DNA of 64,000 nt from Escherichia coli (GCF_965641715.1 NZ_OZ282453.1), one strand, 5' to 3'. Shown: positions 8,478 to 57,522, counted from the first letter of the stretch. The notes: generated by a model not told the origin, from the sequence alone. A program made the numbers and translations.

Positions 8478-9638
8478 TCAGGTTGGATCAACAGGCACTA
8501 CGTTCTCACTTGGGTAACAGCCCAATACCTTCATTGAACGGGTGATTTCCCCTAACTCTTTCAATGCTTTTTGCATTTCCGCTGATTCAAGATTGGCCTG
8601 AATATCCAGATAAAACATCTCTTCCCATGGATTACCGTGAATCGGGCGTGATTCCAGACGGGTCATAATCAGATTGTGGTTGCGCAGTACCAGCAACGCT
8701 TCAACCAGCGCACCGGCTTGTTGCCCGGTCGCCATTAACAACGTCGTTTTCGCCGGAACCTGATCAGACACGTTAATGGCTTTACGCGCCAACACCACAA
8801 ATCGGGTGAAGTTTTGTCGCTGATTCGCTTCAATCCGCTCCAGTACCTGCAAACCGTACAAAGTGCCGCCAGCTTCGCTTCCCAACGCAGCAACATGCGG
8901 TGATTTTGCCTGTGCAACCTTTTCCATTGCCGCAGACGTACTTTCGGTATATTCAATCTTCCAGTGCGGATAACGATTAAGGAATTTGCTGCATTGCTGG
9001 AATGGCTGCGGATGGCTGTAGACCGTATTGATGGTGGATAAATCAGTAGTGCCGGAGACCAACAAACAATGGTCGATAGTTAACGTCATCTCGCCAACAA
9101 TCGACAAGCTGGTATGTTGCAGCAGATCGTAAACGTCATTTATGGCACCGGAGCTGGTATTTTCAATCGGTACGACGGCATAGTCGGCCTGGCCGGTTTC
9201 CACCTGATTAAAAATATCGGCAAATTTGGCGCAGCCACTTTCAATGAATTGCTCAAAGTGACGGGCAGCATACTGGCGCGCCGCAAGATGGGAATAAGAA
9301 CCTTTGGGGCCGAGAAAAGCGATGCGTGCTGAGTGCGGATTAATTTTATTGAGATGTTGTTGGAGCAAAGCCTGCTGAGTTAATACGGAATCTTCAATGA
9401 TGAGCTGGAACAGGCGAGTAATGTAATGGGCGTCCAGATGGTGCGCTTTACCGAGCGTAATTAATCTTTCCAGTAAATCGCGTTCACGATCAATATCACG
9501 TACCGGGCGATGCGAGAGCAGTTTGGCTTTTCCCACCTCGACGGCCAGTTCGCGCCGCTCTGCGAGTAATGCTAATAATTTTTCATCCAGCGCGCTGATT
9601 TTCTCTCGCAGCGCCAGTAACGGGTTTTCCGATGTCAT
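8478..9638 (-). CDS. pheA: Bifunctional chorismate mutase / prephenate dehydratase (P-protein)
   Basis: 386 aa beginning [22 protein letters not shown]...; chorismate mutase, prephenate dehydratase and ACT domains. Confidence 0.95.
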
Positions 9639-9838: not shown

Positions 9839-9865
9839 ACAAAAAACGCGCCCGAAGGTGCGTTG
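9839..9865. repeat. Prophage attL direct repeat (int-proximal)
   Basis: ACAAAAAACGCGCCCGAAGGTGCGTTG; matches 45803-45829 at 26 of 27 positions. Confidence 0.6.
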
Positions 9866-9951: not shown

Positions 9952-10974
9952 TTATGTGGATGAAATGTGGATGCCTCCTTTTAACGGATTAAGTGAAATT
10001 GCATCCTGGAGGAAATCAGGAGCGAGGTGCGCATAGGTCATAGTTTGCTGGATCGTGGCGTGCCCCATAATTCGCTGGAGCGTAAGTATATTTCCTCCAT
10101 TAATCATAAAGTGAGCTGCAAAGGTATGGCGTAGAACATGTACTGCCTGCCCTTTTGGTAGATCAGGTTTAACACTGCGAAGCACCTTGCGATATTCCTC
10201 ATAATTGACGTCAAACAAAAGGCCGGATTTCTTTGTTTTGATCTCGCTAACAACTTCATCAGAGACAGGAATAATTCGAACTTTTCCGTTTTTAGTTTTG
10301 TTAAACGTCACGCGGTTATTGATGATGTGTTCCGCGCGCAGATTTTTCGCTTCTCCCCATCTCGCACCAGTACTGAGACAAAGTAGCGTAATCCGCCGGG
10401 CATCACCGCTTACTGCATCCAGTAATTTGGCAATTTCTTCCGTGGTGAGATACGTCATTTCGGGTGATTTTCGTTTCAAAGAGGGGAGGGCGCGGAGCGG
10501 ATTTTCTCCGTGAAATTCCCCGGCATTTGCCAGGAGTGTAAACATTCCTCCGAGATCCGACTCATCACGCCGAACAGTAGACTCTTTTACTCCCAAAGAT
10601 AAACGGGAGCTTCGATAAGCGGCCATGAAACGAGCATTAATCTGGCTAACCCTTGGATCATTCATTTCTTTGATGATTTTTTTCAACCTGGTTAGAACGC
10701 CGTTAGCATATGGCTTATTGCGTCCACCCAATTCCCACCATAACGGAAGCAGATCTGAGAGATGACGTTGCTCTGTTGGCTTTTCAAGCCATTCCTTATC
10801 GTGCATGTGGCTGAGAACATAACGCTCAAAGGCCACTGCATCTGCCTTTTTCTTAAAAATCCGCTGAATCCGACGTCCACTTCGGCCACGCGGTCTAACA
10901 TCCACTTTATACCGTCCACCATCGAGTGCTTTAATTGCCATTGGCAAGCCCTCCGGTGAAACGAGGAAAGACAT
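9952..10974 (-). CDS. int: Phage tyrosine integrase
   Basis: 340 aa with C-terminal tyrosine recombinase catalytic region (HxLRHT...Y); immediately inside attL. Confidence 0.9.
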   Translation of the reverse strand: MSFLVSPEGLPMAIKALDGGRYKVDVRPRGRSGRRIQRIFKKKADAVAFERYVLSHMHDKEWLEKPTEQRHLSDLLPLWWELGGRNKPYANGVLTRLKKIIKEMNDPRVSQINARFMAAYRSSRLSLGVKESTVRRDESDLGGMFTLLANAGEFHGENPLRALPSLKRKSPEMTYLTTEEIAKLLDAVSGDARRITLLCLSTGARWGEAKNLRAEHIINNRVTFNKTKNGKVRIIPVSDEVVSEIKTKKSGLLFDVNYEEYRKVLRSVKPDLPKGQAVHVLRHTFAAHFMINGGNILTLQRIMGHATIQQTMTYAHLAPDFLQDAISLNPLKGGIHISST

Positions 10975-15046: not shown

Positions 15047-17869
15047 ATGACGGCAGAGTACATCAGGGACTGGCAACAACCGCGCCACGCAGTGGGACGT
15101 GAAGGAACGGGGATCCCCGTTCCTGAATCCGCGCTTTCCTCCTGGCTGGATGCCTACCGGGCAGAGAACGAGCGCCGCCAGGAAATGGCTGATGCGGCGT
15201 TCTCCGCCACGCCGCTGGGCAACCTGATTAATAAAAGCCTGGATGCACAGGAAAAACAGGACAAAACCATCACACTGGCAGGAGACGCCAGAAAACAGGT
15301 ACGCGGTGCGGTGGATGAAGCCATGGCCTCGCTGCGCCTGCTGCCGTCCTATCTGCGCGATCCGCTTATTCGCCACCTCTCCTTCCTGCGCAAAAAACAG
15401 GAAGCCGATCGCCGGAAAGGCAAAAAGAGCTGGCAGGCTGAACGCTACGCGCGCGGAACCCTGCGCAAAATATTCGAACGTCTGGACCGCACCGACCACC
15501 GCTGGCTGACACCGGGTTATCGCTCCCTTGCCGGACGCGAACGCCTGGATGATTTGCTTTACCTGCCGCAGCTCAACAAGCACCAGATACAGACGCTGGC
15601 CACCATGACGGCGGCGATGTTCAGCAGCACCTTCGAAAAACTCTGCGATGGCTTTGGCGCGACTGATGGCGAGCTGACCATGGATGTAACGCTGAAGGCG
15701 TATCAGATGCTGGCCCGCATGGCGTTACACCTGCACGCCATGCCTCCGCATTATGATGCACTGACAACAGACAAAGACCGGAGGAACGAACCGGACACGG
15801 AGCTGCTGCCGGGCGCAATCCTTCGCCTGACCTGTGCGGAATGGTGGAAACGCAAACTGTGGCTGTTACGTTGCGAGTGGCGGGAAGAACAACTCCGCGC
15901 CGCCTGTCTGGTTTCCAGAAAAACATCGCCCTATCTGAGCCAGGACGCGTTAAGCGAGTTTCGCGCACAGCGCGAGAAAACACGCGATTTCCTGAAAAGT
16001 TTCATGCTGGAAAACGAAGACGGGTTCACGATTGATCTCGAGACGGTGTATTACGCGGGAGTAAGTAACCCGGTTCATCGTAAGGCAGAAATGATGGCCA
16101 CCATGAAGGGGCTGGAACTTCTGGCCGAAGCCCGTGGCGACAAAGCGGTGTTTCTGACTGTCACCTGCCCGTCAAAATACCACGCCACAACAGAGAACGG
16201 TCATCCGAATCCCAAATGGAACGGGGCCACCATGCGCGACTCCAGCGATTACCTGGTTAACACGTTTTTTGCGGCGGTCCGCAAGAAACTGAACCGCGAC
16301 GGCCTGCGCTGGTATGGCATCCGCACGGTGGAGCCTCACCATGACGGCACCGTGCACTGGCATATGATGGTCTTTGCTCATCCGGAAGAAATCGACACCA
16401 TTGTGTCCCACACCCGCGATATTGCCATTCAGGAAGATCGTCACGAGCTGGGTGATGATATTACCCCACGCTTTAAGGCGGAGTACGTCGACGGCTCAAA
16501 AGGCACACCGACCAGCTACATCGCCACCTACATCGGGAAAAACCTGGACAGCCGTGCCGTGGATGGCATCGACCCGAAAACGGGCAAGCCACGCGTTGAC
16601 CACGAAACCGGAAAATCAATGGCCGAGAGCGTGGAACGCGCCATCGGCTGGGCGCGCCTTCATCGGGTCCGCCAGTTCCAGTTCTTTGGCATCCCCTCCC
16701 GTCAGGTGTGGCGTGAACTGCGCCGCCTTGCCAGCCAGATGGCTCGCAACCCGGAAGGACCGCAACGGCTGAAGGATGACGCAATGGACGCGGTTCTTGC
16801 TGCCGCTGATGCCGGATGTTTTGCCACCTACATAGAGAAACAGGGCGGCGTACTTGTTCCACGCAAGGACTACCTGATTCGCACCGCCTACGACCTCGCA
16901 GATGAGCTGAACGATTACGGTGAACAGAGCGTACAGATTTACGGGATCTGGTCACCGCTCATCGGGGAGTCTTCCCGCGTATGCACGCATCCGGACAACT
17001 GGAAGCTGGTAAGACGCAAACCGGAAGCGGAAGACAGCGCCCGCGAAAATGGTTTTGACCTTCAGGGCGGCCCTGCCGCCCCTTGGACTCGTGGCAATAA
17101 CTGTCCCCGTGTACAGGAAACAGGCAACAGCGGGACAGAACAGTCGAAAGAACGGCCAGCACCGTGGCCGCAGCTTCCTGACGGCGTTGACGTGAACGAA
17201 TGGATGCGCTCACTGAAACGGCACGAACGCCGGGCGCTGATGCGTTCGCTTCGTGACAAACAGGCAAAAAACAGCAGTGATGAAATGCAGAGCTGGACAC
17301 AGAGCCGCAAACAGCCACGGCCTTTGCCTGATAACCACGAATTACTCGCTAAAGAATGGCGGGAGTCTGCTGAATCTCTCGGCCTGCATATCGGTGAACA
17401 ACAGATGCAGCACCTGTTACGGGGCGGCAGTCTGTACGTTGACGGCAGCATCATTGCACCGCAGGGATTTGAAATTGTACGCAAACCGGATACCCGCCCG
17501 GACAGCCGAATCACGCAGCTCTGGCAGCGCCTGAGCCGTAATCATGGCGTAAGCAGCACGGAGATCCGCCATAACCCGGTCGCCAGCTATCTGGCACAGC
17601 TGGGGGCATCAGACCCTGAAGCCGCCGCACGCCTGGCATCCACACTTCAGCAGGACCAGAACACCATGAAAACACCCGTTACCGTGCTTTCTGACATGCT
17701 GCGCGCCATCCGCGACGCAGAGCACGCACAGAGAATCAGTGAAACCACTGAACGCGCCAGCCGCAAAGCAGACCTGCTGCGGGGTGGCCTGACCAGTGGA
17801 AACAAAAAACAGACAGAAACGGGATTCACAAATCCCATAAATGAGCAAAAAACGTGCCGCGATATATGA
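15047..17869 (+). CDS. Rolling-circle replication initiator (P2 gpA-like endonuclease)
   Basis: 940 aa with a HUH-type motif (VHWHMMVF); position after the early genes as in P2. Longer than P2 A as I recall it. Confidence 0.85.
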   Translation: MTAEYIRDWQQPRHAVGREGTGIPVPESALSSWLDAYRAENERRQEMADAAFSATPLGNLINKSLDAQEKQDKTITLAGDARKQVRGAVDEAMASLRLLPSYLRDPLIRHLSFLRKKQEADRRKGKKSWQAERYARGTLRKIFERLDRTDHRWLTPGYRSLAGRERLDDLLYLPQLNKHQIQTLATMTAAMFSSTFEKLCDGFGATDGELTMDVTLKAYQMLARMALHLHAMPPHYDALTTDKDRRNEPDTELLPGAILRLTCAEWWKRKLWLLRCEWREEQLRAACLVSRKTSPYLSQDALSEFRAQREKTRDFLKSFMLENEDGFTIDLETVYYAGVSNPVHRKAEMMATMKGLELLAEARGDKAVFLTVTCPSKYHATTENGHPNPKWNGATMRDSSDYLVNTFFAAVRKKLNRDGLRWYGIRTVEPHHDGTVHWHMMVFAHPEEIDTIVSHTRDIAIQEDRHELGDDITPRFKAEYVDGSKGTPTSYIATYIGKNLDSRAVDGIDPKTGKPRVDHETGKSMAESVERAIGWARLHRVRQFQFFGIPSRQVWRELRRLASQMARNPEGPQRLKDDAMDAVLAAADAGCFATYIEKQGGVLVPRKDYLIRTAYDLADELNDYGEQSVQIYGIWSPLIGESSRVCTHPDNWKLVRRKPEAEDSARENGFDLQGGPAAPWTRGNNCPRVQETGNSGTEQSKERPAPWPQLPDGVDVNEWMRSLKRHERRALMRSLRDKQAKNSSDEMQSWTQSRKQPRPLPDNHELLAKEWRESAESLGLHIGEQQMQHLLRGGSLYVDGSIIAPQGFEIVRKPDTRPDSRITQLWQRLSRNHGVSSTEIRHNPVASYLAQLGASDPEAAARLASTLQQDQNTMKTPVTVLSDMLRAIRDAEHAQRISETTERASRKADLLRGGLTSGNKKQTETGFTNPINEQKTCRDI

Positions 17870-17945
17870 AGCGCGCACAAAACAGGCAAAAGCGGGATTT
17901 AAAAATCCTGTAAACGATTAATTAATCAACATAAGGAAAAGCGAC

Positions 17946-18905
17946 ATGAAAATTTGTATCGACGACGGCTCCACCAACATCAAGCTGGCATGGACTGAGA
18001 ACGGCGAACGCCGCAACGCCATCAGCCCGAACAGCTTCAAGTCGGAATGGTCTGCGCCGTTCGGTGGCTCGCAGCCCGCGAACTACATGCTTGATGGCGT
18101 GCGCTATGGTTTTGATCCGGTCAGCGATCGCTTTGTCCAGACGACCGACACGCAATACCAGTACAGCGATGTGAATGTCATTGCCATTCATCACGCGCTG
18201 GTCAAATCAGGCATCACGCCACAGGAGGTGGATGTGGTTGTCACCCTGCCATTGAGCGAGTATTTCGACACAAACGCACAGCCGGACATGGCCAACATCA
18301 GCCGCAAAAAAGCGAACGTTATGCGCCCGGTGGAGTACCAGAACGGCGAAACATTCACTATCCGTAACGTACGGGTTATGCCTGAATCCATTCCGGCTGG
18401 CTTTAAAGCACTGGCTGACATGAGTCCGCTTGAATCCCTGCTGATTGTGGATTTGGGCGGAACCACACTGGATGTGGCAAAGGTTCAGGGGCAACTGGCA
18501 GGTATCAGCCAGGTGTTTTGCGATCCACACGTAGGCGTTTCCCTGATGGCCGATGCCGTACTGTCGGTGATGGCCACTAACGGTATGCGTATCAGTCACC
18601 ACATCGCCAATACCATTATCGAACATCGCCATGATGAAGCCTGGTTGCGCCAGCACATCCACAATGACGCGCATTACGCCAGCCTGATGGCGGTTATTCG
18701 TGAAAAGGAAGAAACACTGAAACAACGCGTGATCCGCGCGCTGGCGGTTTTTTCGGGTTACGGGCGGGTGATGGTTGTCGGTGGCGGGGCGGAGATTGTG
18801 GCACCCGCTATCCGCGAAGCCTGCGGAGTTAATGCGACTTTCATCGCGGACGGGGTGCCACAGTTTGCTCTGGTTAATGGGCTGTACGCAATGGACAAGG
18901 AGTAA
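17946..18905 (+). CDS. ParM/StbA-like actin-type segregation ATPase
   Basis: N-terminus MKICIDDGSTNIKLAW... and later ...YSDVNVIAIHHAL... closely resemble plasmid R1 ParM (MLVFIDDGSTNIKLQW...YSDVNVVAVHHAL) as recalled. Confidence 0.85.
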   Translation: MKICIDDGSTNIKLAWTENGERRNAISPNSFKSEWSAPFGGSQPANYMLDGVRYGFDPVSDRFVQTTDTQYQYSDVNVIAIHHALVKSGITPQEVDVVVTLPLSEYFDTNAQPDMANISRKKANVMRPVEYQNGETFTIRNVRVMPESIPAGFKALADMSPLESLLIVDLGGTTLDVAKVQGQLAGISQVFCDPHVGVSLMADAVLSVMATNGMRISHHIANTIIEHRHDEAWLRQHIHNDAHYASLMAVIREKEETLKQRVIRALAVFSGYGRVMVVGGGAEIVAPAIREACGVNATFIADGVPQFALVNGLYAMDKE

Positions 18906-18909
18906 ACCA

Positions 18910-19221
18910 ATGACGACTCCAACCAGACGGATAAGTTTCTATCTGAAGCCCGCCGCCGTCAAGAACGAAGGTGAAGCATGCGCCTGGCTGGACAGCCTTA
19001 CACCAGAAGCGCGCAAAAGCGGCCAACGCGTGGCTTTTCTGGCCGGGCTGGCACTTCTGAAAATGAATCCGGCAGAGGCTTACCGACTGGCTGCATGGGC
19101 TGATGATGAAGCGTTATCAGTGACACAAACCAGGACAGAACGCCCCGCGTCACAGCCAGTATCAACCGCACAGATAACCAGTCAGATGGCCGGAAATATC
19201 CGGGCGTTATTTCCCGAATAA
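18910..19221 (+). CDS. ParR/StbB-like centromere-binding adaptor
   Basis: 103 aa from ATG 18910 (AAGGAG RBS); RRISFYLKP...LDSLTPEARKSGQRVAFLAGLAL and C-terminal NIRALFPE parallel R1 ParR; 4 nt after the ParM stop. Confidence 0.7.
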   Translation: MTTPTRRISFYLKPAAVKNEGEACAWLDSLTPEARKSGQRVAFLAGLALLKMNPAEAYRLAAWADDEALSVTQTRTERPASQPVSTAQITSQMAGNIRALFPE

Positions 19222-19284
19222 CACAACATCAGGGCGCATCCGCCCTGATGACTTTAACCCGGGAACATAAACAAGGGGGACACA

Positions 19285-19620
19285 ATGCAACGCATTGACA
19301 GAGAAAAAGCGCAGCGACTGATTGAGCGGATGGAAGCGCTGGCGAAAGAAGAAAATGTCAACATCCAAAAAATAGCTGAATGTGGCCAGATAGTTCTTCG
19401 TCGTGAAAAAGACCTCAAACAACTGATGTCTGGCGAAACCAGCAAAACATGGACTTCAGGTGAGGAGACGATTTATTGCAGCTTCTGCAATAAATCCCAG
19501 TACGAAGTCACAAAGGTGATTGCCGGACCGTCTGTTTACATCTGCAATGAGTGCGTTGATTTGTGCAATGAAGTTATCAGGAGAGAAGTGACAGACCATG
19601 AAGAAAAAACGCATGAATGA
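19285..19620 (+). CDS. Protein with C-terminal ClpX-type C4 zinc-binding domain
   Basis: C-terminal [39 protein letters not shown] is near-identical to the ClpX N-domain as recalled; N-terminal ~65 aa unrelated and helical. Confidence 0.75.
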
Positions 19621-19786
19621 CGAATTTGACGGCTTTTAATTTTATCGGGGCGCACTGTCGCCCTGCATGGAGAAAAACAATAAAAAAGATGAATAACTGC
19701 TCATGTCAGACGCGCTGCGGGCAAGTCTGGCACCCTGCCCTGTCTCCGCAAAGGCTGTTGTCTTAACACGACAGAGTATGCCAGCA

Positions 19787-20194
19787 TTAAATATAATCTT
19801 CTTCGTAGTCGCTGATTAATTCATTGCCATAATCAGACAGCAATTTCAAAGCAAAGGTAACTTCCTCAAGGGTAGCTATCCCCATTGCTGAAAACACCGT
19901 TAATTTAACCAGCAGCAGGGAGTTTGAAAGTTCGGAAGAGTTCATCATTAAAAATATTGATGCAGCCTGAAAAGCTGTGCGTTTATTCCCATCATGAAAG
20001 GCATGAGCCTTGGCTATACCAATCAAATACATAGCAGCCAGAGCATGAATATCATCAACCCCTTCATAGTAGTGTAGTGTCCTGACGCGATTTAAAGCAC
20101 CTTCAAGTAGCCCGTCATTGGCATTTCCGCTCTGGGGTAAAGTTTCAGCATGGATACGTTCTACTTGTTCTTTTGACAAAAACACTATGTCCAT
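19787..20194 (-). CDS. Doc-family (Fic-fold) toxin
   Basis: 135 aa with Fic/Doc active-site motif HAFHDGNKRTAF; downstream of and overlapping the antitoxin gene. Confidence 0.8.
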   Translation of the reverse strand: MDIVFLSKEQVERIHAETLPQSGNANDGLLEGALNRVRTLHYYEGVDDIHALAAMYLIGIAKAHAFHDGNKRTAFQAASIFLMMNSSELSNSLLLVKLTVFSAMGIATLEEVTFALKLLSDYGNELISDYEEDYI

Positions 20195-20550
20195 CAGTTA
20201 TCCTCAAGCTTTTTAATGATATCCGCATGTTTTTCTCTTGTACGCTTCATTGCATCTTCAAAAGACAATCCTTTTTTTCTCTGTGCGACAAGAGCTGGAT
20301 GACGTTTTTCCAGATCTCTCACTGCATTTATTAAGAGTGGTTGCTTCATTTTGTTTATTTGATCCCGCAGTTTTTTGGTTTTGCCAAGGACAGCCCGTAT
20401 TTCAGGACTAAGATCAGAACCAGCAAGAACAACATCCTTCCCTCCCTGCGCCGTGATAACGACACTGCCACCGGAAGAAAGGTAATCCAGAATTTCACTC
20501 AGGTTCTCACGAAATTCATCATCAGTTACAGTTTTCATATTCATTTCCAT
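20194..20550 (-). CDS. Phd/YefM-like antitoxin with C-terminal extension
   Basis: N-terminus ...MKTVTDDEFRENLSEILDYL...VVITAQGGKDVVLA fits the Phd/YefM pattern; stop overlaps the Doc start. Confidence 0.65.
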   Translation of the reverse strand: MEMNMKTVTDDEFRENLSEILDYLSSGGSVVITAQGGKDVVLAGSDLSPEIRAVLGKTKKLRDQINKMKQPLLINAVRDLEKRHPALVAQRKKGLSFEDAMKRTREKHADIIKKLEDN

Positions 20551-20624
20551 TATGCACGCCCATAACGTAAGTATAACGGCTTGTTGGGCAGTAATAACAC
20601 CGCCATATTTTCATTTTATACACC

Positions 20625-20650
20625 GCACAATAGTGCACAAATTTGCACAA
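20625..20650 (-). promoter_or_regulatory. Putative operator of the phd-doc promoter
   Basis: Three GCACAA hexamers at 10-bp phasing (20625, 20635, 20645) overlapping -10/-35-like elements upstream of the antitoxin gene. Confidence 0.4.
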
Positions 20651-21074
20651 TTTTTTTGAACAACTTTTTACCCTTCCGGCCCGCGTGGCGACTGGATCCG
20701 TCAAGGATCCGTGCGTGCACAAAAAAACGCGTTTTTTCTGCGCGCAGGTGACGGGGGAACAGCCCGCGTTTCAGGGGGTAAATAGCATTCCCTGAACGAT
20801 GTCGCAGCGACACAACAGAATGGCTGTATTTCTCACACTGAGCGTGAAAAAGGCGTGAGGGCTTTTGATTTGATGGGGTGACAGATAAGGCCGTCAAAAT
20901 CGCACTGAGGCGGCAAGAACATGCAGTCAACGCGGTGGGATTGCGTAAGAGCCTGACCGTCGATGATGGCGATAAGCTGGAAGACGTCGTGAAATTATCT
21001 GATTGATACAGGAGCTGGAGAGTCGGGGCATAAATTTTTTATGCCCCGGCGAAGCAGCAGACAAGCGAAGCGCG

Positions 21075-22121
21075 TCAGGATGTGGGCTGGGTGTCCAGCA
21101 GTGCGTAAGGGTTAAAGCGGATCACCTCTTCGCCAAGCCAGTCATTGATATGCTTCATGGCCTCCATGACGGGCATCAGCTCGTTAATTGCGTAAACCCG
21201 CGCTGCCTTCTCCACATCACCAAACGCACTTTTTTCGCCCGGCATCGCCCCCATCAGTTGCGGCGGAACGCGGTGCGCAGCCAGCACATCATCACGGGAT
21301 GCCGCCTTAACATTCATGAACTCATCCTTTGCGGTGATCTGCTGGAACGGCAAAATTTGCACACCTTCTTTGCCCCCGTTGGGCGCGTGAATGAGCACGT
21401 TTTTAAATGCACCACCACCACGCGCACCCTGTAGCGTTTCCTTCAGGGAGTCCATGCTTTCGCGGTTTACCTGCGCTGCACCGATGTAGATGATGCACCC
21501 GGCGTGGGATCCATTGTCGTAGTACAGTTTTCTGAACATGTCCGCCGAATGAGACAGGCTGGCCGAGAGTAATGCGCCAAGATATTCCGGCATGCCGTAA
21601 ATTTCCTGGTTAATGTCCGGATTCATCAGGTGGCACACTTTGCCAGGGCGAAACTGAAACGCGTCCTTGCCATCCTGCACATACCACCATGATTCAAGAT
21701 CGCTTCCGCGTCGCATGTATTTCGCCAGTGCGTGCCGTAATTTAAGTGGTTCGCCGAGCATATTGCTCCGAAGCTCAAGGAATGCGTTACCGAACACAAA
21801 CCAGTCCAGCGCCAGCGCCGAGAAATCCTGCCGGGAAAGCAGCGGGTGCGGGATGTAGCAACCGAGCAATACATTGCGCTTAAAGTAAAGCGCAGACTGA
21901 TGCCAGGACGTTTGCCGGGCGGCTCTTGCCAGACCGTACCAGTCCACCGGGGTTTCATACCACCGCCCGTTATCAGCACAGTACATATTGTCCAGCAGGT
22001 CATGCCCGGTCAGGCGGTAAGGACCATCAAATGTGAATGCACTGAGCGACGATTCTTTCCTGAGCGCATCAGCGAGATCAATGCGTGAACTCATGCGCAC
22101 TTTTTTATTTTTTCTGCTCAT
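21075..22121 (-). CDS. Portal protein (P2 gpQ-like)
   Basis: 348 aa, co-oriented and overlapping with the large terminase gene as in the P2 Q-P operon. Confidence 0.85.
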   Translation of the reverse strand: MSRKNKKVRMSSRIDLADALRKESSLSAFTFDGPYRLTGHDLLDNMYCADNGRWYETPVDWYGLARAARQTSWHQSALYFKRNVLLGCYIPHPLLSRQDFSALALDWFVFGNAFLELRSNMLGEPLKLRHALAKYMRRGSDLESWWYVQDGKDAFQFRPGKVCHLMNPDINQEIYGMPEYLGALLSASLSHSADMFRKLYYDNGSHAGCIIYIGAAQVNRESMDSLKETLQGARGGGAFKNVLIHAPNGGKEGVQILPFQQITAKDEFMNVKAASRDDVLAAHRVPPQLMGAMPGEKSAFGDVEKAARVYAINELMPVMEAMKHINDWLGEEVIRFNPYALLDTQPTS

Positions 22122-44259: not shown

Positions 44260-44496
44260 ATGTGGAAAGGCCCCGGAAAACATTTCTGTTTAACCGAGGC
44301 CCTAACACTTCTTACCTTCGCAAGTAGAAGGTTAGCGCCTCTCCTCTCAGGAGACAAGCGTTATGACGCAAATTCCGTTAAAAACCCTGTTACTTTGCAT
44401 AACTGCGGTAGCGATAATCTGGATCCTCCACACATCACCGTGCGAGTTACGATTCAGGTTTGCTGGCACGGAAATTGCGGCATTCTTACTATGTAA
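44260..44496 (+). CDS. Putative mok-like overlapping frame of the hok locus
   Basis: 78-codon frame that starts upstream of, and overlaps almost all of, the hok-like ORF in another frame, as mok does in hok/sok loci. Confidence 0.35.
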   Translation: MWKGPGKHFCLTEALTLLTFASRRLAPLLSGDKRYDANSVKNPVTLHNCGSDNLDPPHITVRVTIQVCWHGNCGILTM

Positions 44497-44503
44497 TAAG
44501 TAA
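44363..44503 (+). CDS. Hok/Gef-family type I toxin (46 aa)
   Basis: MTQIPLKTLLLCITAVAIIWILHTSPCELRFRFAGTEIAAFLLCNK: single TM helix then the Hok signature C-E-hydrophobic-R...G..E-hydrophobic-A-A-F. Confidence 0.65.
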   Translation: MTQIPLKTLLLCITAVAIIWILHTSPCELRFRFAGTEIAAFLLCNK

Positions 44504-44705: not shown

Positions 44706-44752
44706 GATTTGTTATCATATCGGCAGCAGTAACCACACAAGAGGTGCCGCAA

Positions 44753-44950
44753 ATGACGCAAAATGTACGATGCAAAAATTGCAACAAACTACTTGCCCGC
44801 GCCTCATTTCACTACATTGAAATAAAATGTCCGCGCTGCAAAACACTTAACCAGATAACGAGAGCCATCGAGCACCCCACACACATGAGGAGTTATGACC
44901 GTGGGGATCGCAATCCAGCACCAACCAGCACATACGCCAGAACACACTAA
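44753..44950 (+). CDS. Com-like zinc-finger translational regulator
   Basis: MTQNVRCKNCNKLLARASFHYIEIKCPRCKTLNQ...EHPT resembles phage Mu Com as recalled; 3' end overlaps the methyltransferase start; track ORF starts at GTG 44744. Confidence 0.75.
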   Translation: MTQNVRCKNCNKLLARASFHYIEIKCPRCKTLNQITRAIEHPTHMRSYDRGDRNPAPTSTYARTH

Positions 44951-45701
44951 GGTTTATCAGACTGACAATGTCACGCTCTGTTGTGGGAATGCACTGGAAA
45001 TATTGCCGCTGATTGAGCCAGAAAGCATTGATGCCTTAATCACTGACCCGCCTTACAGTTCGGGTGCGACACACAAGGCCGGACGCACCAATCAGGGCAG
45101 CCATGCAAAATATCTGAACGGCGAGAACCTTCACCGCTTTGATGGGTTCGCGGGTGAAAACATGGACGCCCGTTCGTGGGCTTACTGGACACAATTATGG
45201 ATGGCACAGGCACACCGCGCAGTCAGGCCAGGCGGTTATGCCATGGTATTTACTGACTGGCGACAACTACCAGCTTTAACCGATGCGTTTCAGGCCAGTG
45301 GCTTTACATGGCGCGGCATCATTGCGTGGAACAAGGGGAGGGGGTCACGAACACCACATACCGGGTATTTCCGGCATCAGTGCGAATACATCGTCTGGGG
45401 CAGCAAAGGCCATTTAGATAAATCGCCTTCGGGGCCGTTCGACGGCTGCATGACGTACCCGGTTATCCCGTCAAAGAAAATGCACCCGACCGGAAAACCA
45501 GAAGAACTAATGGCGGAACTGGTCAGGACTGTGAATAGTGGCGGAACAGTCCTTGATCCTTTTATGGGGTCAGGGACAACGGGTGTGGCTGCACTGAAAG
45601 CAGGGCGAAAATTTATTGGTATAGAAACCAGTGATCATTATTTTGAGGTAGCAGCGCAGCGGCTTCGGGGGACTATTACCACAACCATTTCGGCTACATA
45701 A
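44895..45701 (+). CDS. DNA methyltransferase with DPPY motif (N6-adenine or N4-cytosine), no restriction partner seen
   Basis: 268 aa; N-terminal ...ESIDALITDPPYSS... catalytic motif and C-terminal FMGSGTTGVAA AdoMet-binding motif; start overlaps com. Confidence 0.85.
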   Translation: MTVGIAIQHQPAHTPEHTKVYQTDNVTLCCGNALEILPLIEPESIDALITDPPYSSGATHKAGRTNQGSHAKYLNGENLHRFDGFAGENMDARSWAYWTQLWMAQAHRAVRPGGYAMVFTDWRQLPALTDAFQASGFTWRGIIAWNKGRGSRTPHTGYFRHQCEYIVWGSKGHLDKSPSGPFDGCMTYPVIPSKKMHPTGKPEELMAELVRTVNSGGTVLDPFMGSGTTGVAALKAGRKFIGIETSDHYFEVAAQRLRGTITTTISAT

Positions 45702-45802: not shown

Positions 45803-45829
45803 ACAAAAAACGCGCCCGAAGGCGCGTTG
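45803..45829. repeat. Prophage attR direct repeat, coincident with the raiA terminator
   Basis: ACAAAAAACGCGCCCGAAGGCGCGTTG; forms a perfect GCGCC-TTCG-GGCGC hairpin plus T-run on the minus strand after raiA. Confidence 0.6.
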
Positions 45830-46463: not shown

Positions 46464-47201
46464 TTATGTATTGCTGCTGTTTGCGGCGATGATTTTCGCT
46501 ACTTTTTCAGCTTGCGCATTCATCTGCATCTGACGGTATGCATTTTCCATCAGCGGCAGCGCATCACGCGTAGCCTGGGTATCCGGGTAGTCGCGCAACA
46601 TGCCTTCTACGCGGTTAACGACGGCAACCCATGCGCCACGTTCTGTATAGTACTCGGCCACGGAGTATTCATATTTCGCCAGACGATCTTTCAGGAATAC
46701 CAGACGTTTGGTGGCATCGGTGGTGTACTGACTGTTTGGATAGCCGCGCACCAGTTTGGAAAAGTCACTAAACGCAGCTCGTGCATGTTGAGGATCGCGA
46801 TCGCTACGGTCAACGCCAAAGAACCCTTGCAGCGCACTGTCATCCAGCGCCATATTGGTCAGGCCACGCATGTACATGACATAATCGATATTCGGATGGG
46901 TCGGGTTAAGGCGAATAAAACGATCGATGGCAGCCTGCGCTAACGGCAAATCGGCGTTTTTATAGTAGGCGTAGATGAGATCCAGCTGCACCTGCTGCGA
47001 ATACGGACCAAACGGATAGCGATTATCTAACGCTTCCAGTTGCGTTATTGCCTGTCTCCAGTTACCGTCCTGCAGCTTTTGTTGTGCAGTCGCGTAAATT
47101 TCATTTGGCGGATTATCAGGTACTTCTTCCTTTGACCCCGAGCAACCCGCCAAAAACAGGCTTAGTGTGGCGGCTGCCACCAGATATTTCATGCGCGTCA
47201 T
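46464..47201 (-). CDS. bamD: Outer-membrane protein assembly factor BamD
   Basis: 245 aa lipoprotein (LFLAGCSG) with TPR-like repeats. Confidence 0.9.
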
Positions 47202-51747: not shown

Positions 51748-51752
51748 TGATA

Positions 51753-51778
51753 AAACGAGCCCTTCGGGGCTCGTTTTT
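51753..51778 (+). terminator. Rho-independent terminator of clpB
   Basis: AACGAGCCCTTCGGGGCTCGTT hairpin plus T-run directly after the clpB stop. Confidence 0.6.
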
Positions 51779-51861
51779 GTCTATAAGTTAGACGGAAAAG
51801 ACTATATTTAAGATGTTTTGCCTGAAAAATGAGCGAACGATAAAGTTTTTATATTTTTCGC

Positions 51862-51889
51862 TTGTCAGGCCGGAATAACTCCCTATAAT
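51862..51889 (+). promoter_or_regulatory. rRNA operon promoter P1
   Basis: TTGTCA, 16-bp spacer, TATAAT, with AT-rich upstream region. Confidence 0.6.
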
Positions 51890-51979
51890 GCGCCACCACT
51901 GACACGGAACAACGGCAAACACGCCGCCGGGTCAGCGGGGTTCTTCTGAGAATCTCAACAGAGAAAAGCAAAAAAATGC

Positions 51980-52008
51980 TTGACTCTGTAGCGGGAAAGC
52001 GTATTATG
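51980..52008 (+). promoter_or_regulatory. rRNA operon promoter P2
   Basis: TTGACT, 17-bp spacer, TATTAT, about 120 bp downstream of P1. Confidence 0.55.
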
Positions 52009-52188
52009 CACACCCCGCGCCGCTGAGAAAAAGCGAAGCGGCACTGCTCTTTAACAATTTATCAGACAATCTGTGTGGGCACTCGAAGATACGGATTCTT
52101 AACGTCGCAAGACGAAAAATGAATACCAAGTCTCAAGAGTGAACACGTAATTCATTACGAAGTTTAATTCTTTGAGCATCAAACTTTT

Positions 52189-53730
<1,542 letters not shown>

Positions 53731-53815
53731 CCTTAAAGAAGCGTACTTTGCAGTGCTCACACAGATTGTCTGATAGAAAGTGAAAAGCAAGGCGTCTTGC
53801 GAAGCAGACTGATAC

Positions 53816-53891
53816 GTCCCCTTCGTCTAGAGGCCCAGGACACCGCCCTTTCACGGCGGTAACAGGGGTTCGAATCCCCTAGGGGACGCCA
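53816..53891 (+). tRNA. gltW: tRNA-Glu (UUC) in the 16S-23S spacer
   Basis: GTCCCCTTCGTCTAGAGGCCCAGGACACCGCCCTTTCACGGCGGTAACAGGGGTTCGAATCCCCTAGGGGACGCCA, 76 nt. Confidence 0.9.
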
Positions 53892-54084
53892 CTTGCTGGT
53901 TTGTGAGTGAAAGTCGCCGACCTTAATATCTCAAAACTCATCTTCGGGTGATGTTTGAGATATTTGCTCTTTAAAAATCTGGATCAAGCTGAAAATTGAA
54001 ACACTGAACAACGAAAGTTGTTCGTGAGTCTCTCAAATTTTCGCAACACGATGATGGATCGCAAGAAACATCTTCGGGTTGTGA

Positions 54085-56988
<2,904 letters not shown>

Positions 56989-57080
56989 ACAACGCCGAAG
57001 CTGTTTTGGCGGATGAGAGAAGATTTTCAGCCTGATACAGATTAAATCAGAACGCAGAAGCGGTCTGATAAAACAGAATT

Positions 57081-57200
57081 TGCCTGGCGGCCGTAGCGCG
57101 GTGGTCCCACCTGACCCCATGCCGAACTCAGAAGTGAAACGCCGTAGCGCCGATGGTAGTGTGGGGTCTCCCCATGCGAGAGTAGGGAACTGCCAGGCAT
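57081..57200 (+). rRNA. rrfG: 5S ribosomal RNA
   Basis: TGCCTGGCGGCCGTAGCGCGGTGG...GGGAACTGCCAGGCAT, 120 nt. Confidence 0.9.
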
Positions 57201-57212
57201 CAAATTAAGCGA

Positions 57213-57240
57213 AAGGCCATCCTGACGGATGGCCTTTTTG
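57213..57240 (+). terminator. rRNA operon terminator
   Basis: AAGGCCATCCTGACGGATGGCCTT hairpin plus T-run after the 5S gene. Confidence 0.6.
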
Positions 57241-57522
57241 CATTGGCGCAGAAAAAAATGCCTGATGCGACGCTGCGCGTCTTATACTCCCACATATGCC
57301 AGATTGAGCAACGGATACGGTTTCCCCAACTTGCCTACTTCCATACGTGTCCTCCTTACCAGATATTTATCCTTAAGCTCCTCAATAACCATTTTCCTGC
57401 TAACTAAATTCATGGTTAAGGTTGCATAATGATACGCAACAAATGTATAACATTTTCTTTACCAAAAGAAATAAACAAAAGCGACCGACAAAAGCATCGG
57501 ATTACGGCAGGAGACTAATGGC

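What the first reader, a model, noticed from the sequence alone, without database searches (positions are those of the whole stretch)
17946..19221. Plasmid-type actin-like partition system (ParM/ParR) inside an integrated prophage
The two proteins align motif by motif with plasmid R1 ParM and ParR as I recall them. An integrated P2-type prophage has no obvious need for an active partition system. Possibilities are an episomal (phage-plasmid) lifestyle, segregation of replicating phage DNA, or co-option of the filament for another role such as exclusion.
Basis: partly seen in the sequence, partly recalled or inferred. Interest (0 to 1): 0.65.

Follow-up and report, generated by a model that had tools for sequence, protein, structure and literature searches.

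The report
ParM/ParR partition genes in P2-like prophage
An integrated P2-type E. coli prophage really does carry an intact plasmid-style actin (ParM/ParR) DNA-segregation cassette, but this is a common, already annotated feature of about a quarter of such prophages, and its role has not been tested in any paper I could find.

Summary
Window 17946-18905 encodes a 319-aa ParM (Pfam StbA_N 5.6e-82 plus the ParM C-terminal domain 5.4e-68). It matches plasmid R1 ParM structures over its full length (E 7.5e-94), with every actin-fold nucleotide motif intact. Window 18910-19221 encodes a 103-aa ParR (PF10784, 2e-24; a profile hits the solved pB171 ParR, 2jd3, at 5e-14).

The host element is a ~36-kb P88-like (Xuanwuvirus, P2-type) prophage. 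It is flanked by 20-bp att repeats and lies between pheA and bamD.

The cassette sits directly after the gpA replication gene. Two conserved 42-nt repeats upstream of parM are a candidate centromere (parC).

The locus occurs in 24% of complete E. coli genomes, almost always on the chromosome (1451 places versus 2 on plasmids). It is under strong purifying selection (parM dN/dS 0.07). It occupies the same position in P2-like prophages of four other genera.

It is not new. RefSeq and PHROGs annotate it, and Rousset et al. 2022 noted it and suggested plasmid maintenance.

My best model is that it segregates or positions extrachromosomal circular phage copies after infection or excision, by analogy with SXT SrpMRC and CGP3 AlpAC. 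A stable plasmid lifestyle is disfavoured. Function is untested.

The parts
17803..17844 (+). Candidate parC, distal 42-nt repeat. It contains the palindromic box CGGGATT-CACA-AATCCC and lies inside the 3' end of the gpA gene.
   Evidence: Direct-repeat family D1. Offset-73 self-similarity z 5.4. The GGGA...CCC core is invariant in E. coli, Hafnia and Plesiomonas. ParR binding is not tested.
17876..17917 (+). Candidate parC, proximal 42-nt repeat. It contains the box CGGGATT-TAAA-AATCC and ends 28 nt before the parM ATG.
   Evidence: Plesiomonas has the same two-box layout at 72 nt and Hafnia at 73 nt. R100 parC gives offsets of 94 and 11 with the same method.
17921..17937 (+). Conserved ATTAATCAA element followed by the AAGGA ribosome-binding site of parM.
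   Evidence: ATTAAT is invariant across three genera. No sigma-70 consensus promoter was found in 17600-19700, so the promoter status is unresolved.
17946..18905 (+). parM: actin-fold ATPase, 319 aa.
   Evidence: Pfam StbA_N plus ParM C-terminal domain. R1 ParM structures at E 7.5e-94. Nucleotide-binding motifs invariant. 319 aa in 79 of 79 related loci; dN/dS 0.066.
18910..19221 (+). parR: centromere-binding adaptor, 103 aa. It has an N-terminal domain homologous to the solved pB171 ParR (residues 1-62), a disordered linker, and a C-terminal helix ending NIRALFPE.
   Evidence: PF10784 at 2e-24. Profile hit to pB171 ParR 2jd3 at 5.3e-14. 34% identity to R100 StbB. AlphaFold2 model with helices 18-61, low confidence over about 62-85, and a helix at 86-100. 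dN/dS by segment: N-terminal domain 0.10-0.13, linker 0.5-0.9, C-terminal tail 0.04-0.18.
19227..19250 (.). GC-rich 10-bp-stem hairpin closing the cassette.
   Evidence: Inverted repeat I14. RNA fold -26.5 kcal/mol, z -4.06. The scan scored it as terminator-like only on the - strand, and there is no T-run on the + strand.
15047..17869 (+). Context: P2 gpA-type replication endonuclease (940 aa) immediately upstream on the same strand.
   Evidence: PHROG 91 'nicking at origin of replication', 3.7e-275. Annotated 'replication endonuclease' in P88.
9839..9858 (.). Context: attL core of the prophage (ACAAAAAACGCGCCCGAAGG).
   Evidence: Exact 20-bp repeat of 45803-45822. pheA lies at 8478-9638 and the integrase at 9952-10974.
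45803..45822 (.). Context: attR core of the prophage.
   Evidence: bamD lies at 46464-47201 on the host side.

Best explanation
This is a complete, functional type II (ParMRC) DNA-segregation cassette that belongs to the P88-like phage itself. It acts on the phage genome while that genome is an extrachromosomal circle, not while it is integrated.

Proposed steps:
1. ParR dimers bind the two palindromic boxes just upstream of parM (the candidate parC). This is inferred.
2. ParR's conserved C-terminal helix captures the ends of ATP-ParM filaments. This is inferred from homology to R1.
3. Filament growth pushes sister or paired phage circles apart.

The cassette lies directly downstream of, and co-oriented with, the gpA replication gene. 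No terminator lies between them and no consensus promoter of its own was found. I therefore infer that it is expressed with the early replication operon, after infection or after derepression and excision.

The likely payoff is twofold. Replicated circular copies are distributed or positioned rather than clumped. The element is also not lost from a daughter cell during the window before integration or after excision. That makes it a transient-episome maintenance or positioning function, as shown for SXT/R391 SrpMRC and CGP3 AlpAC.

Shown here: gene identity, intact motifs, purifying selection, conserved synteny, conserved upstream boxes, and the integrated state. Inferred: DNA binding, filament formation, timing of expression, and the benefit.
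For: - Family identity of both proteins and intact ATPase motifs.
- ParM is full length in 79 of 79 related loci with dN/dS 0.066.
- ParR shows the selection pattern expected of a working adaptor: constrained DNA-binding domain and C-terminal tail, and a near-neutral linker.
- The gpA -> parM -> parR -> variable cargo -> portal layout recurs in P2-like prophages of Hafnia, Plesiomonas, Serratia and Enterobacter.
- Across those lineages ParM (55-62% identity) is more conserved than gpA (30-55%), portal (30-48%) or large terminase (36-43%).
- A two-copy upstream element is conserved, at a 72-73 nt offset in three genera and 92-93 nt in two others. R100 parC gives 94 nt with the same method.
- There is no + strand terminator between gpA and parM and no sigma-70 consensus promoter.
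- Experimental precedents exist for integrated elements: SrpMRC and AlpAC, which is early-induced and needed for efficient phage replication.
- PhiSM, a P88-like relative that carries the cassette, is an active temperate phage that integrates (H6).
Against: - No experiment on this system was found in the searchable library.
- The candidate parC has only two obvious sites rather than the ten 11-bp iterons of R1, and ParR binding is unproven.
- Expression timing is inferred only from gene order and a negative promoter scan.
- About three quarters of E. coli P2-like phages lack the cassette, so it is not essential for the P2 life cycle.
- If excision normally leads to lysis, partition of excised circles would bring little benefit to lysogen stability.
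Confidence: 0.55

Rival explanations
1. Facultative phage-plasmid lifestyle. The cassette lets P88-like phages persist for many generations as low-copy circular plasmids as an alternative to integration. This is the idea floated by Rousset et al. 2022.
For: - PLSDB holds a circular 34,461-bp 'plasmid' (NZ_CP148288.1) that is a whole P88-like genome with integrase, repressor, gpA and parMR.
- The identical parMR region (a 2.1-kb stretch spanning parM and parR) is chromosomal in a sister strain.
- The prophage also carries other plasmid-type maintenance modules: a Doc-family toxin pair and a Hok/Gef gene.
- The true phage-plasmid D6 uses a ParM that is 47.5% identical.
- The suggestion is in print.
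Against: - In complete E. coli genomes the locus is on chromosomes in 1451 places and on plasmids in 2.
- In PLSDB, the other near-identical hits are a linear IS-ridden 26.8-kb fragment and very large replicons of 228 kb to 1.4 Mb, not phage-sized plasmids.
- The single circular record could be an excised or induced form captured by the assembly.
- The P88 annotation shows no plasmid-type replication initiator, only the gpA rolling-circle endonuclease, whose expression is tied to the lytic operon.
- The window copy is integrated between att repeats.
Confidence: 0.15
2. Cargo of the gpA-portal hotspot that serves exclusion. ParMR would interfere with competing plasmids, phage-plasmids or superinfecting phages, for example through partition incompatibility or filament-mediated mislocalisation, rather than move the phage's own DNA.
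For: - The cassette lies in the gpA-gpQ region that Rousset et al. define as a hotspot rich in anti-phage systems.
- The genes downstream of parR vary between phages: a Doc toxin pair here and other genes elsewhere.
- Only about a quarter of P2-like phages carry it.
Against: - ParM and ParR have no PADLOC hit.
- The cassette always abuts the replication module, with the variable cargo starting only after parR.
- It keeps its own conserved cis-acting repeats, which an interference-only system would not need.
- Its upstream repeats do not resemble the R100 parC iterons, so cross-incompatibility with R1-type plasmids is not expected.
Confidence: 0.07
3. Host-benefit or inert passenger. Either it is a leftover from a plasmid-phage recombination that is merely tolerated, or it is a 'fitness factor' for the bacterium unrelated to phage DNA, as tabulated for PhiSM.
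For: - The PhiSM paper lists the gene as a 'fitness' cargo gene without any test.
- An O157:H7 prophage remnant that has lost its packaging genes still has intact gpA-parM-parR.
- Some truncated ParM clusters exist in the protein database (P0009 and P0017).
Against: - Strong purifying selection acts on parM and on the two functional ends of parR.
- Both ORFs are intact wherever the contig allows.
- The same position is conserved across five genera, with ParM more conserved than core phage proteins.
- The upstream cis-elements are conserved.
Confidence: 0.08

Closest known systems
ParMRC (parA/stb locus) of plasmids R1 and R100/NR1, the type II partition system
   Same: - Same gene order: repeats, then parM, then parR.
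- ParM is 47% identical over its full length, with all nucleotide-binding motifs shared.
- ParR shares the N-terminal strand and helices (RxIxFxLxP...R...AGLAL) and the C-terminal K-N-x-x-x-L motif.
- The region upstream of parM is duplicated in two halves in both (offset 73 here, 94 in R100).
   Different: - It is carried by an integrating P2-type phage rather than a low-copy plasmid.
- The upstream element has two 20-bp palindromic boxes within 42-nt repeats instead of 2 x 5 A/C-rich 11-bp iterons.
- The distal repeat overlaps the end of the gpA gene.
- No consensus promoter was detected.
- ParR is shorter (103 versus 116 aa) and its C-terminus ends LFPE.
P88-like phages (Xuanwuvirus, Peduoviridae): P88, PhiSM, 520873, P884B11
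   Same: 97-98% nucleotide identity across gpA-parM-parR, the same genome layout, and the same annotation (ParM / partition protein).
   Different: Essentially nothing at this locus. The cargo after parR differs: a ClpX zinc-finger gene plus a Doc toxin pair here, and hypothetical genes in P88. The integration module also differs between members.
SrpMRC of SXT/R391 integrative conjugative elements (Carraro et al. 2015, PMC4489591)
   Same: An actin-type partition system on an element that normally sits integrated. It was shown to stabilise the transient excised, replicating circle and is expressed only with the excision/transfer programme. The element also carries a toxin-antitoxin module.
   Different: SrpM is only distantly related to R1 ParM, and SrpR has no recognisable ParR domain. 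It sits on a conjugative element, not a virus, and lies in the int operon rather than after a replication gene.
AlpAC/alpS of Corynebacterium glutamicum prophage CGP3 (Donovan et al. 2015, PMC4446434)
   Same: An integrated prophage encodes an actin-like filament former plus a DNA-binding adaptor that binds repeats in its own upstream region. The genes are induced early and are needed for efficient replication of the excised circular phage DNA.
   Different: It is from a Gram-positive host, has a divergent actin-like protein, and places the adaptor gene upstream (alpA-alpC). Homology to the present proteins was not tested here.
StbA/ParM of phage-plasmid D6 (P1-like)
   Same: A phage-borne R1-type ParM, 47.5% identical over 99% of its length.
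   Different: D6 is a 91-kb extrachromosomal prophage that needs partition. The present phage integrates.

Membership tests
Type II (ParMRC) plasmid partition system, R1 type | Actin-fold ATPase of the ParM/StbA family | tested here: met
   Pfam StbA_N 5.6e-82 plus the ParM C-terminal domain 5.4e-68. R1 ParM structures at E 7.5e-94, residues 2-316.
Type II (ParMRC) plasmid partition system, R1 type | Conserved nucleotide-binding and hydrolysis motifs (phosphate 1 DDGST, catalytic Glu in PES, phosphate 2 DxGGTT, adenosine GGGA) | tested here: met
   D6 D7 G8 S9 T10 K13, E147, D169 G171 G172 T173 T174 and G279-A282 are invariant in a 7-sequence alignment that includes R100 ParM.
Type II (ParMRC) plasmid partition system, R1 type | Small ParR adaptor gene immediately downstream, with a ParR-family N-terminal DNA-binding domain | tested here: met
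   parR starts 5 nt after the parM stop codon. PF10784 at 2e-24. Profile hit to the solved pB171 ParR 2jd3 at 5.3e-14. 34% identity to R100 StbB. Foldseek with the monomer model found nothing.
Type II (ParMRC) plasmid partition system, R1 type | ParR C-terminal helix that binds ParM | tested here: inconclusive
   The C-terminal motif (K/G)-N-I/A-x-x-L/F-F-P is conserved across 12 ParRs, with N96 invariant. A helix is predicted at 86-100 after a disordered linker. The tail has dN/dS 0.04-0.18. Binding itself is not testable here.
Type II (ParMRC) plasmid partition system, R1 type | Cis-acting centromere parC: repeated ParR sites next to the operon, usually overlapping its promoter | tested here: inconclusive
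   Two 42-nt repeats with palindromic boxes lie upstream of parM. The offset is conserved across genera and the box core is invariant. However, there are only two clear sites, no 11-bp iteron array, and no consensus promoter. Binding is untested.
Type II (ParMRC) plasmid partition system, R1 type | ATP-dependent dynamic filaments and stabilisation of an unstable replicon | not testable with these tools
   This needs biochemistry and a plasmid-stability assay.
Phage-plasmid (extrachromosomal prophage such as P1, D6, N15) | Prophage maintained as an autonomous replicon rather than integrated | tested here: not met
   The window copy is integrated between 20-bp att repeats with host genes on both flanks. 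There are 1451 chromosomal places versus 2 on plasmids in 5426 genomes. One circular 34.5-kb record exists.
Phage-plasmid (extrachromosomal prophage such as P1, D6, N15) | Plasmid-type replication initiator separate from the lytic replicon | tested here: not met
   The P88 and pZ1323PEC0009-2 gene tables list only the gpA replication endonuclease. Not every small ORF was profiled.
P88-like P2-type temperate phage (Xuanwuvirus, Peduoviridae) | High nucleotide identity and collinear gene order with phage P88 | tested here: met
   97.9% identity over 2.2 kb. The integrase, C, Cox, gpA, portal, terminase, capsid and tail order matches P88.
Anti-phage defence system of the P2 gpA-gpQ hotspot | Match to a known or candidate defence protein family | tested here: not met
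   ParM and ParR have no PADLOC hit at E <= 0.01. Rousset et al. place the system among non-defence functions.

The most novel reading that the evidence does not exclude
The cassette defines an unrecognised step in the life cycle of a large group of P2-type phages: a short-lived, actively partitioned episomal phase. After the first rounds of gpA replication, or after reversible excision, ParMRC would deliver a phage circle to each cell half. Both daughters would then become or stay lysogens, which raises lysogenisation efficiency and prevents curing. Together with the Hok and Doc modules this would make these prophages behave like ICEs or plasmids in their maintenance logic.
Probability: 0.25. 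Interest if true: 0.6.

Novelty: already known. Interest (0 to 1): 0.3.

Why it matters
About one in four sequenced E. coli strains carries this cassette inside a P2-type prophage. It is kept under stronger constraint than the phage's own portal, terminase and replication proteins, yet none of the papers I could search has tested what it does.

Showing that it partitions or positions extrachromosomal phage DNA would extend the 'integrated elements also need partition' principle from ICEs and one Gram-positive prophage to a very common family of enterobacterial phages. It would also clarify how lysogens are established and kept.

As a sequence finding, however, it is ordinary. It is correctly annotated in public databases and has already been remarked on in the literature.

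Tried and rejected
- ParR alone against PDB sequences gave no hit at E <= 10. Only the 12-sequence profile reached pB171 ParR.
- Foldseek with the ParR monomer model gave no meaningful match. This is expected for a domain that folds only as a dimer and carries a disordered linker.
- NCBIfam gave only sub-threshold hits for ParM and none for ParR or gpA.
- IMG/VR relatives found with the single protein were all at least 97% identical, so they were useless for footprinting parC. Divergent relatives had to come from the protein search plus contig look-ups.
- Two simple IUPAC patterns for the parC box were too rigid for the variable spacer. They mainly returned chance-level hits elsewhere in the window.
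- Rfam found nothing in 17000-21200.
- Searching for the window's att core in the circular record NZ_CP148288.1 failed because that phage has a different integration module.
- The 26.8-kb Shigella 'plasmid' hit is a linear, IS-ridden fragment, not an episome.
- Several literature hits for 'ParM' were author names or unrelated uses.
- A defence role was rejected as the leading idea. A decaying relic was also rejected.

Full report
**What is there.** On the + strand, window 17946-18905 is a 319-aa ORF. The next ORF follows 5 nt after its stop codon: an ATG at 18910 opens a 103-aa ORF ending at 19221.

The first protein matches Pfam StbA_N (5.6e-82) and the ParM C-terminal domain (5.4e-68) end to end. 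It matches the solved R1 ParM structures (1mwk, 5aey, 4a62) at E about 1e-93 over residues 2-316. In an alignment with R100/R1 ParM, an IncL/M ParM and four phage homologues it is 47-62% identical. All actin-fold nucleotide motifs are invariant: D6 D7 G8 S9 T10 K13; E147; D169 G171 G172 T173 T174; G279-A282.

The second protein matches Pfam Plasmid_stab_B (2e-24) and PHROG 2515 'partition protein'. It is 34% identical to R100 StbB (the ParR of NR1/R1) over its first 56 residues. A 12-sequence profile of it hits the crystal structure of pB171 ParR (2jd3) at 5.3e-14.

An AlphaFold2 model shows an extended N-terminus, helices at 18-61, a low-confidence linker at about 62-85, and a C-terminal helix at 86-100. 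The C-terminal motif (K/G)-N-I-x-x-L/F-F-P is shared with plasmid ParRs.

**The element that carries it.** The region is 97.9% identical to Escherichia phage P88 (Xuanwuvirus, Peduoviridae) and to about a dozen relatives. It is 100% identical to the chromosome of E. coli RM10740.

Gene order in the window follows P88: integrase, C, Cox, early genes, gpA, parM, parR, cargo, portal, terminase, capsid and tail genes. A 20-bp direct repeat (ACAAAAAACGCGCCCGAAGG) at 9839-9858 and 45803-45822 bounds a ~36-kb element. It lies between tyrA/pheA and bamD. The prophage is therefore integrated.

**Position and neighbours.** parM starts 76 nt after the stop codon of the 940-aa gpA-type replication endonuclease (PHROG 91), on the same strand. 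No + strand terminator-like site lies between them, and no sigma-70 consensus promoter was found in 17600-19700. A GC-rich hairpin (19227-19250; z -4.06) follows parR.

The variable cargo of the gpA-portal hotspot comes next. Here it is a ClpX-zinc-finger-only protein and a Doc-family toxin with a partner gene.

**Candidate centromere.** Two 42-nt direct repeats lie at 17803-17844 and 17876-17917, 73 nt apart. Each holds a palindromic box (CGGGATT-N4-AATCC). The distal repeat is inside the last codons of gpA.

A simple self-similarity scan gives z 5.4 at offset 73. The same scan recovers the known R100 parC architecture (offsets 94 and 11). It also finds offsets of 72-73 in the Plesiomonas and Hafnia homologues and 92-93 in the Serratia and Enterobacter ones.

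In a cross-genus alignment the GGGA...CCC cores of both boxes, and an ATTAAT just before the ribosome-binding site, are invariant.

This is good comparative support for a cis-acting element. However, it is not an R1-like array of ten 11-bp iterons, and ParR binding is untested. I therefore score parC as inconclusive.

**Is it maintained by selection?** All 79 related loci in which parM could be located (IMG/VR contigs plus P88, the O157:H7 locus and the window itself) have a 319-aa ParM. The only two short ParRs are cut by contig ends.

Pairwise dN/dS is 0.066 for parM. For parR it is 0.10-0.13 in the DNA-binding domain, 0.5-0.9 in the linker and 0.04-0.18 in the C-terminal tail. ParR is very polymorphic, with 45 distinct sequences among the 79 loci, almost entirely in the linker. 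This is the pattern expected of a working adaptor with a disordered tether.

The next-closest ParMs in a 5.8-billion-protein search are 55-62% identical and come from Hafnia, Plesiomonas, Serratia and Enterobacter. All four sit in P2-like prophages in the same place: after the replication module and before the variable cargo and portal.

Across those lineages ParM is more conserved than gpA (30-55%), portal (30-48%) or large terminase (36-43%). The cassette is thus an old, constrained component of a broad group of P2-type phages, not a recent accident.

**Distribution and lifestyle.** The locus is found in 1306 of 5426 complete E. coli genomes (24%), at 1451 chromosomal places and 2 plasmid places.

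In PLSDB, near-identical copies occur in seven records. One is a circular 34,461-bp 'plasmid' that is a whole P88-like genome. Its parMR region (a 2.1-kb stretch) is 100% identical to a chromosomal copy in a sister strain. One is a linear IS-ridden fragment. The rest are very large replicons of 228 kb to 1.4 Mb.

A stable plasmid state is therefore at best rare. An occasional circular form is documented but could simply be an excised or induced genome.

**What is already known.** RefSeq annotates the two genes as 'plasmid segregation protein ParM' and 'plasmid partitioning/stability family protein'. PHROGs hold both as partition-protein families.

Rousset et al. 2022 surveyed the gpA-gpQ hotspot. 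[quoted passage not shown] Their tables list StbA + Plasmid_stab_B arrangements.

The PhiSM paper lists the gene as an untested 'fitness' cargo gene and shows that this P88-like phage is active and integrates (PMC6456863).

I found no paper that tests the system.

Functional precedents for integrated elements do exist. SrpMRC stabilises the excised form of SXT/R391 ICEs and is expressed only with the excision programme (PMC4489591). AlpAC of prophage CGP3 is early-induced, links circular phage DNA to actin-like filaments and is needed for efficient replication (PMC4446434).

**Most likely mechanism.** I take the cassette to be a working ParMRC machine whose substrate is the phage genome while it is an extrachromosomal circle. 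ParR on the two boxes captures ParM filament ends, and filament growth separates the copies. These steps are inferred from homology.

Its placement right after gpA, with no intervening terminator or consensus promoter, suggests expression with the early replication operon. From general knowledge of P2 (not tested here), P2 replicates from an origin inside gene A and packages monomeric circles. The centromere would therefore sit next to the origin, on the very molecules that are replicated and packaged.

The benefit could be better distribution or positioning of templates (CGP3-like). It could also be delivery of a copy to each daughter before integration or after reversible excision (SXT-like). 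I cannot separate these two. I give the overall model 0.55.

**Rivals.** A facultative phage-plasmid lifestyle gets 0.15. It is supported by one circular record and by the co-resident Hok and Doc modules. It is opposed by the 1451:2 distribution and the lack of a plasmid-type initiator.

An exclusion role gets 0.07. The cassette is in the hotspot, but it has no defence-family match and keeps its own cis-elements.

An inert or host-benefit passenger gets 0.08. This is opposed by the selection and synteny data.

**Verdict.** The claim that it is unexplained is only partly right, and the feature is already known and annotated. The residual interest lies in the untested biology of a very common, strongly conserved cassette.

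Noticed in passing
window 19787-20550 (- strand): A Doc ('death on curing') family toxin (134 aa; TIGR01550, 53.5 bits against a cutoff of 38.65) with a 117-aa upstream partner of no known family. It sits in the variable gpA-portal hotspot right after the partition cassette. It also gives weak PADLOC candidate-system hits (PDC-S23).
   Followed up: partly
window 19285-19620 (+ strand): A 111-aa protein whose C-terminal 50 residues are a ClpX-type C4 zinc-finger domain without the AAA+ body (PHROG 6797, unknown function). It lies between parR and the Doc toxin pair. From general knowledge, P1 Phd antitoxin is a ClpXP substrate, so a ClpX N-domain mimic next to a Doc module may not be a coincidence.
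   Followed up: partly
window 44363-44503 (+ strand): A 46-aa Hok/Gef-like ORF near the right end of the prophage, annotated as Hok/Gef or MokW-like in P88 and in NZ_CP148288.1. With parMR and Doc, this is a third plasmid-type maintenance module in one prophage.
   Followed up: partly
window 18910-19221 and loci L006-L085: ParR is hypervariable, with 45 distinct proteins among 79 loci and several unrelated linker sequences. ParM next to it is 97-99% conserved. Many E. coli matches stop at parR codon ~18, so recombination breakpoints of the hotspot fall inside parR.
   Followed up: yes
window 15047-17869: The gpA replication endonuclease is 940 aa here, against 785-906 aa in the other lineages examined. 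Its last ~65 nt overlap the distal candidate parC repeat, so coding and cis-acting functions share sequence.
   Followed up: partly
L004 (NZ_CP148288.1, 34,461 bp, circular): A PLSDB 'plasmid' from a cat E. coli isolate is a complete P88-like phage genome. A 2.1-kb stretch spanning its parMR region is 100% identical to the chromosome of human isolate Z1323HEC0067 (H91). It was not resolved whether this is a real episome or an excised form caught by the assembly.
   Followed up: partly
L003 (E. coli O157:H7 7386WT, NZ_CP089036.1 2266518-2274612): A degraded P2-like prophage in O157:H7 has lost its portal, terminase and capsid genes to an IS3-associated deletion. It still has intact gpA, parM and a different parR allele.
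   Followed up: partly
window 34289-36990: A serine DNA invertase (36385-36990) lies next to oppositely oriented tail-fibre and tail-fibre-assembly genes. This suggests a Gin/Cin-type invertible host-range switch.
   Followed up: no
window 44744-45701: A Com-like zinc-finger ORF overlaps the start of a DNA methyltransferase gene at the right end of the prophage. In the related record these are annotated as a Com family regulator plus a site-specific methyltransferase.
   Followed up: no
window 51750-57500: A stretch of about 5.7 kb downstream of clpB with hardly any ORF of 90 aa or more, consistent with a ribosomal RNA operon. It was not examined.
   Followed up: no
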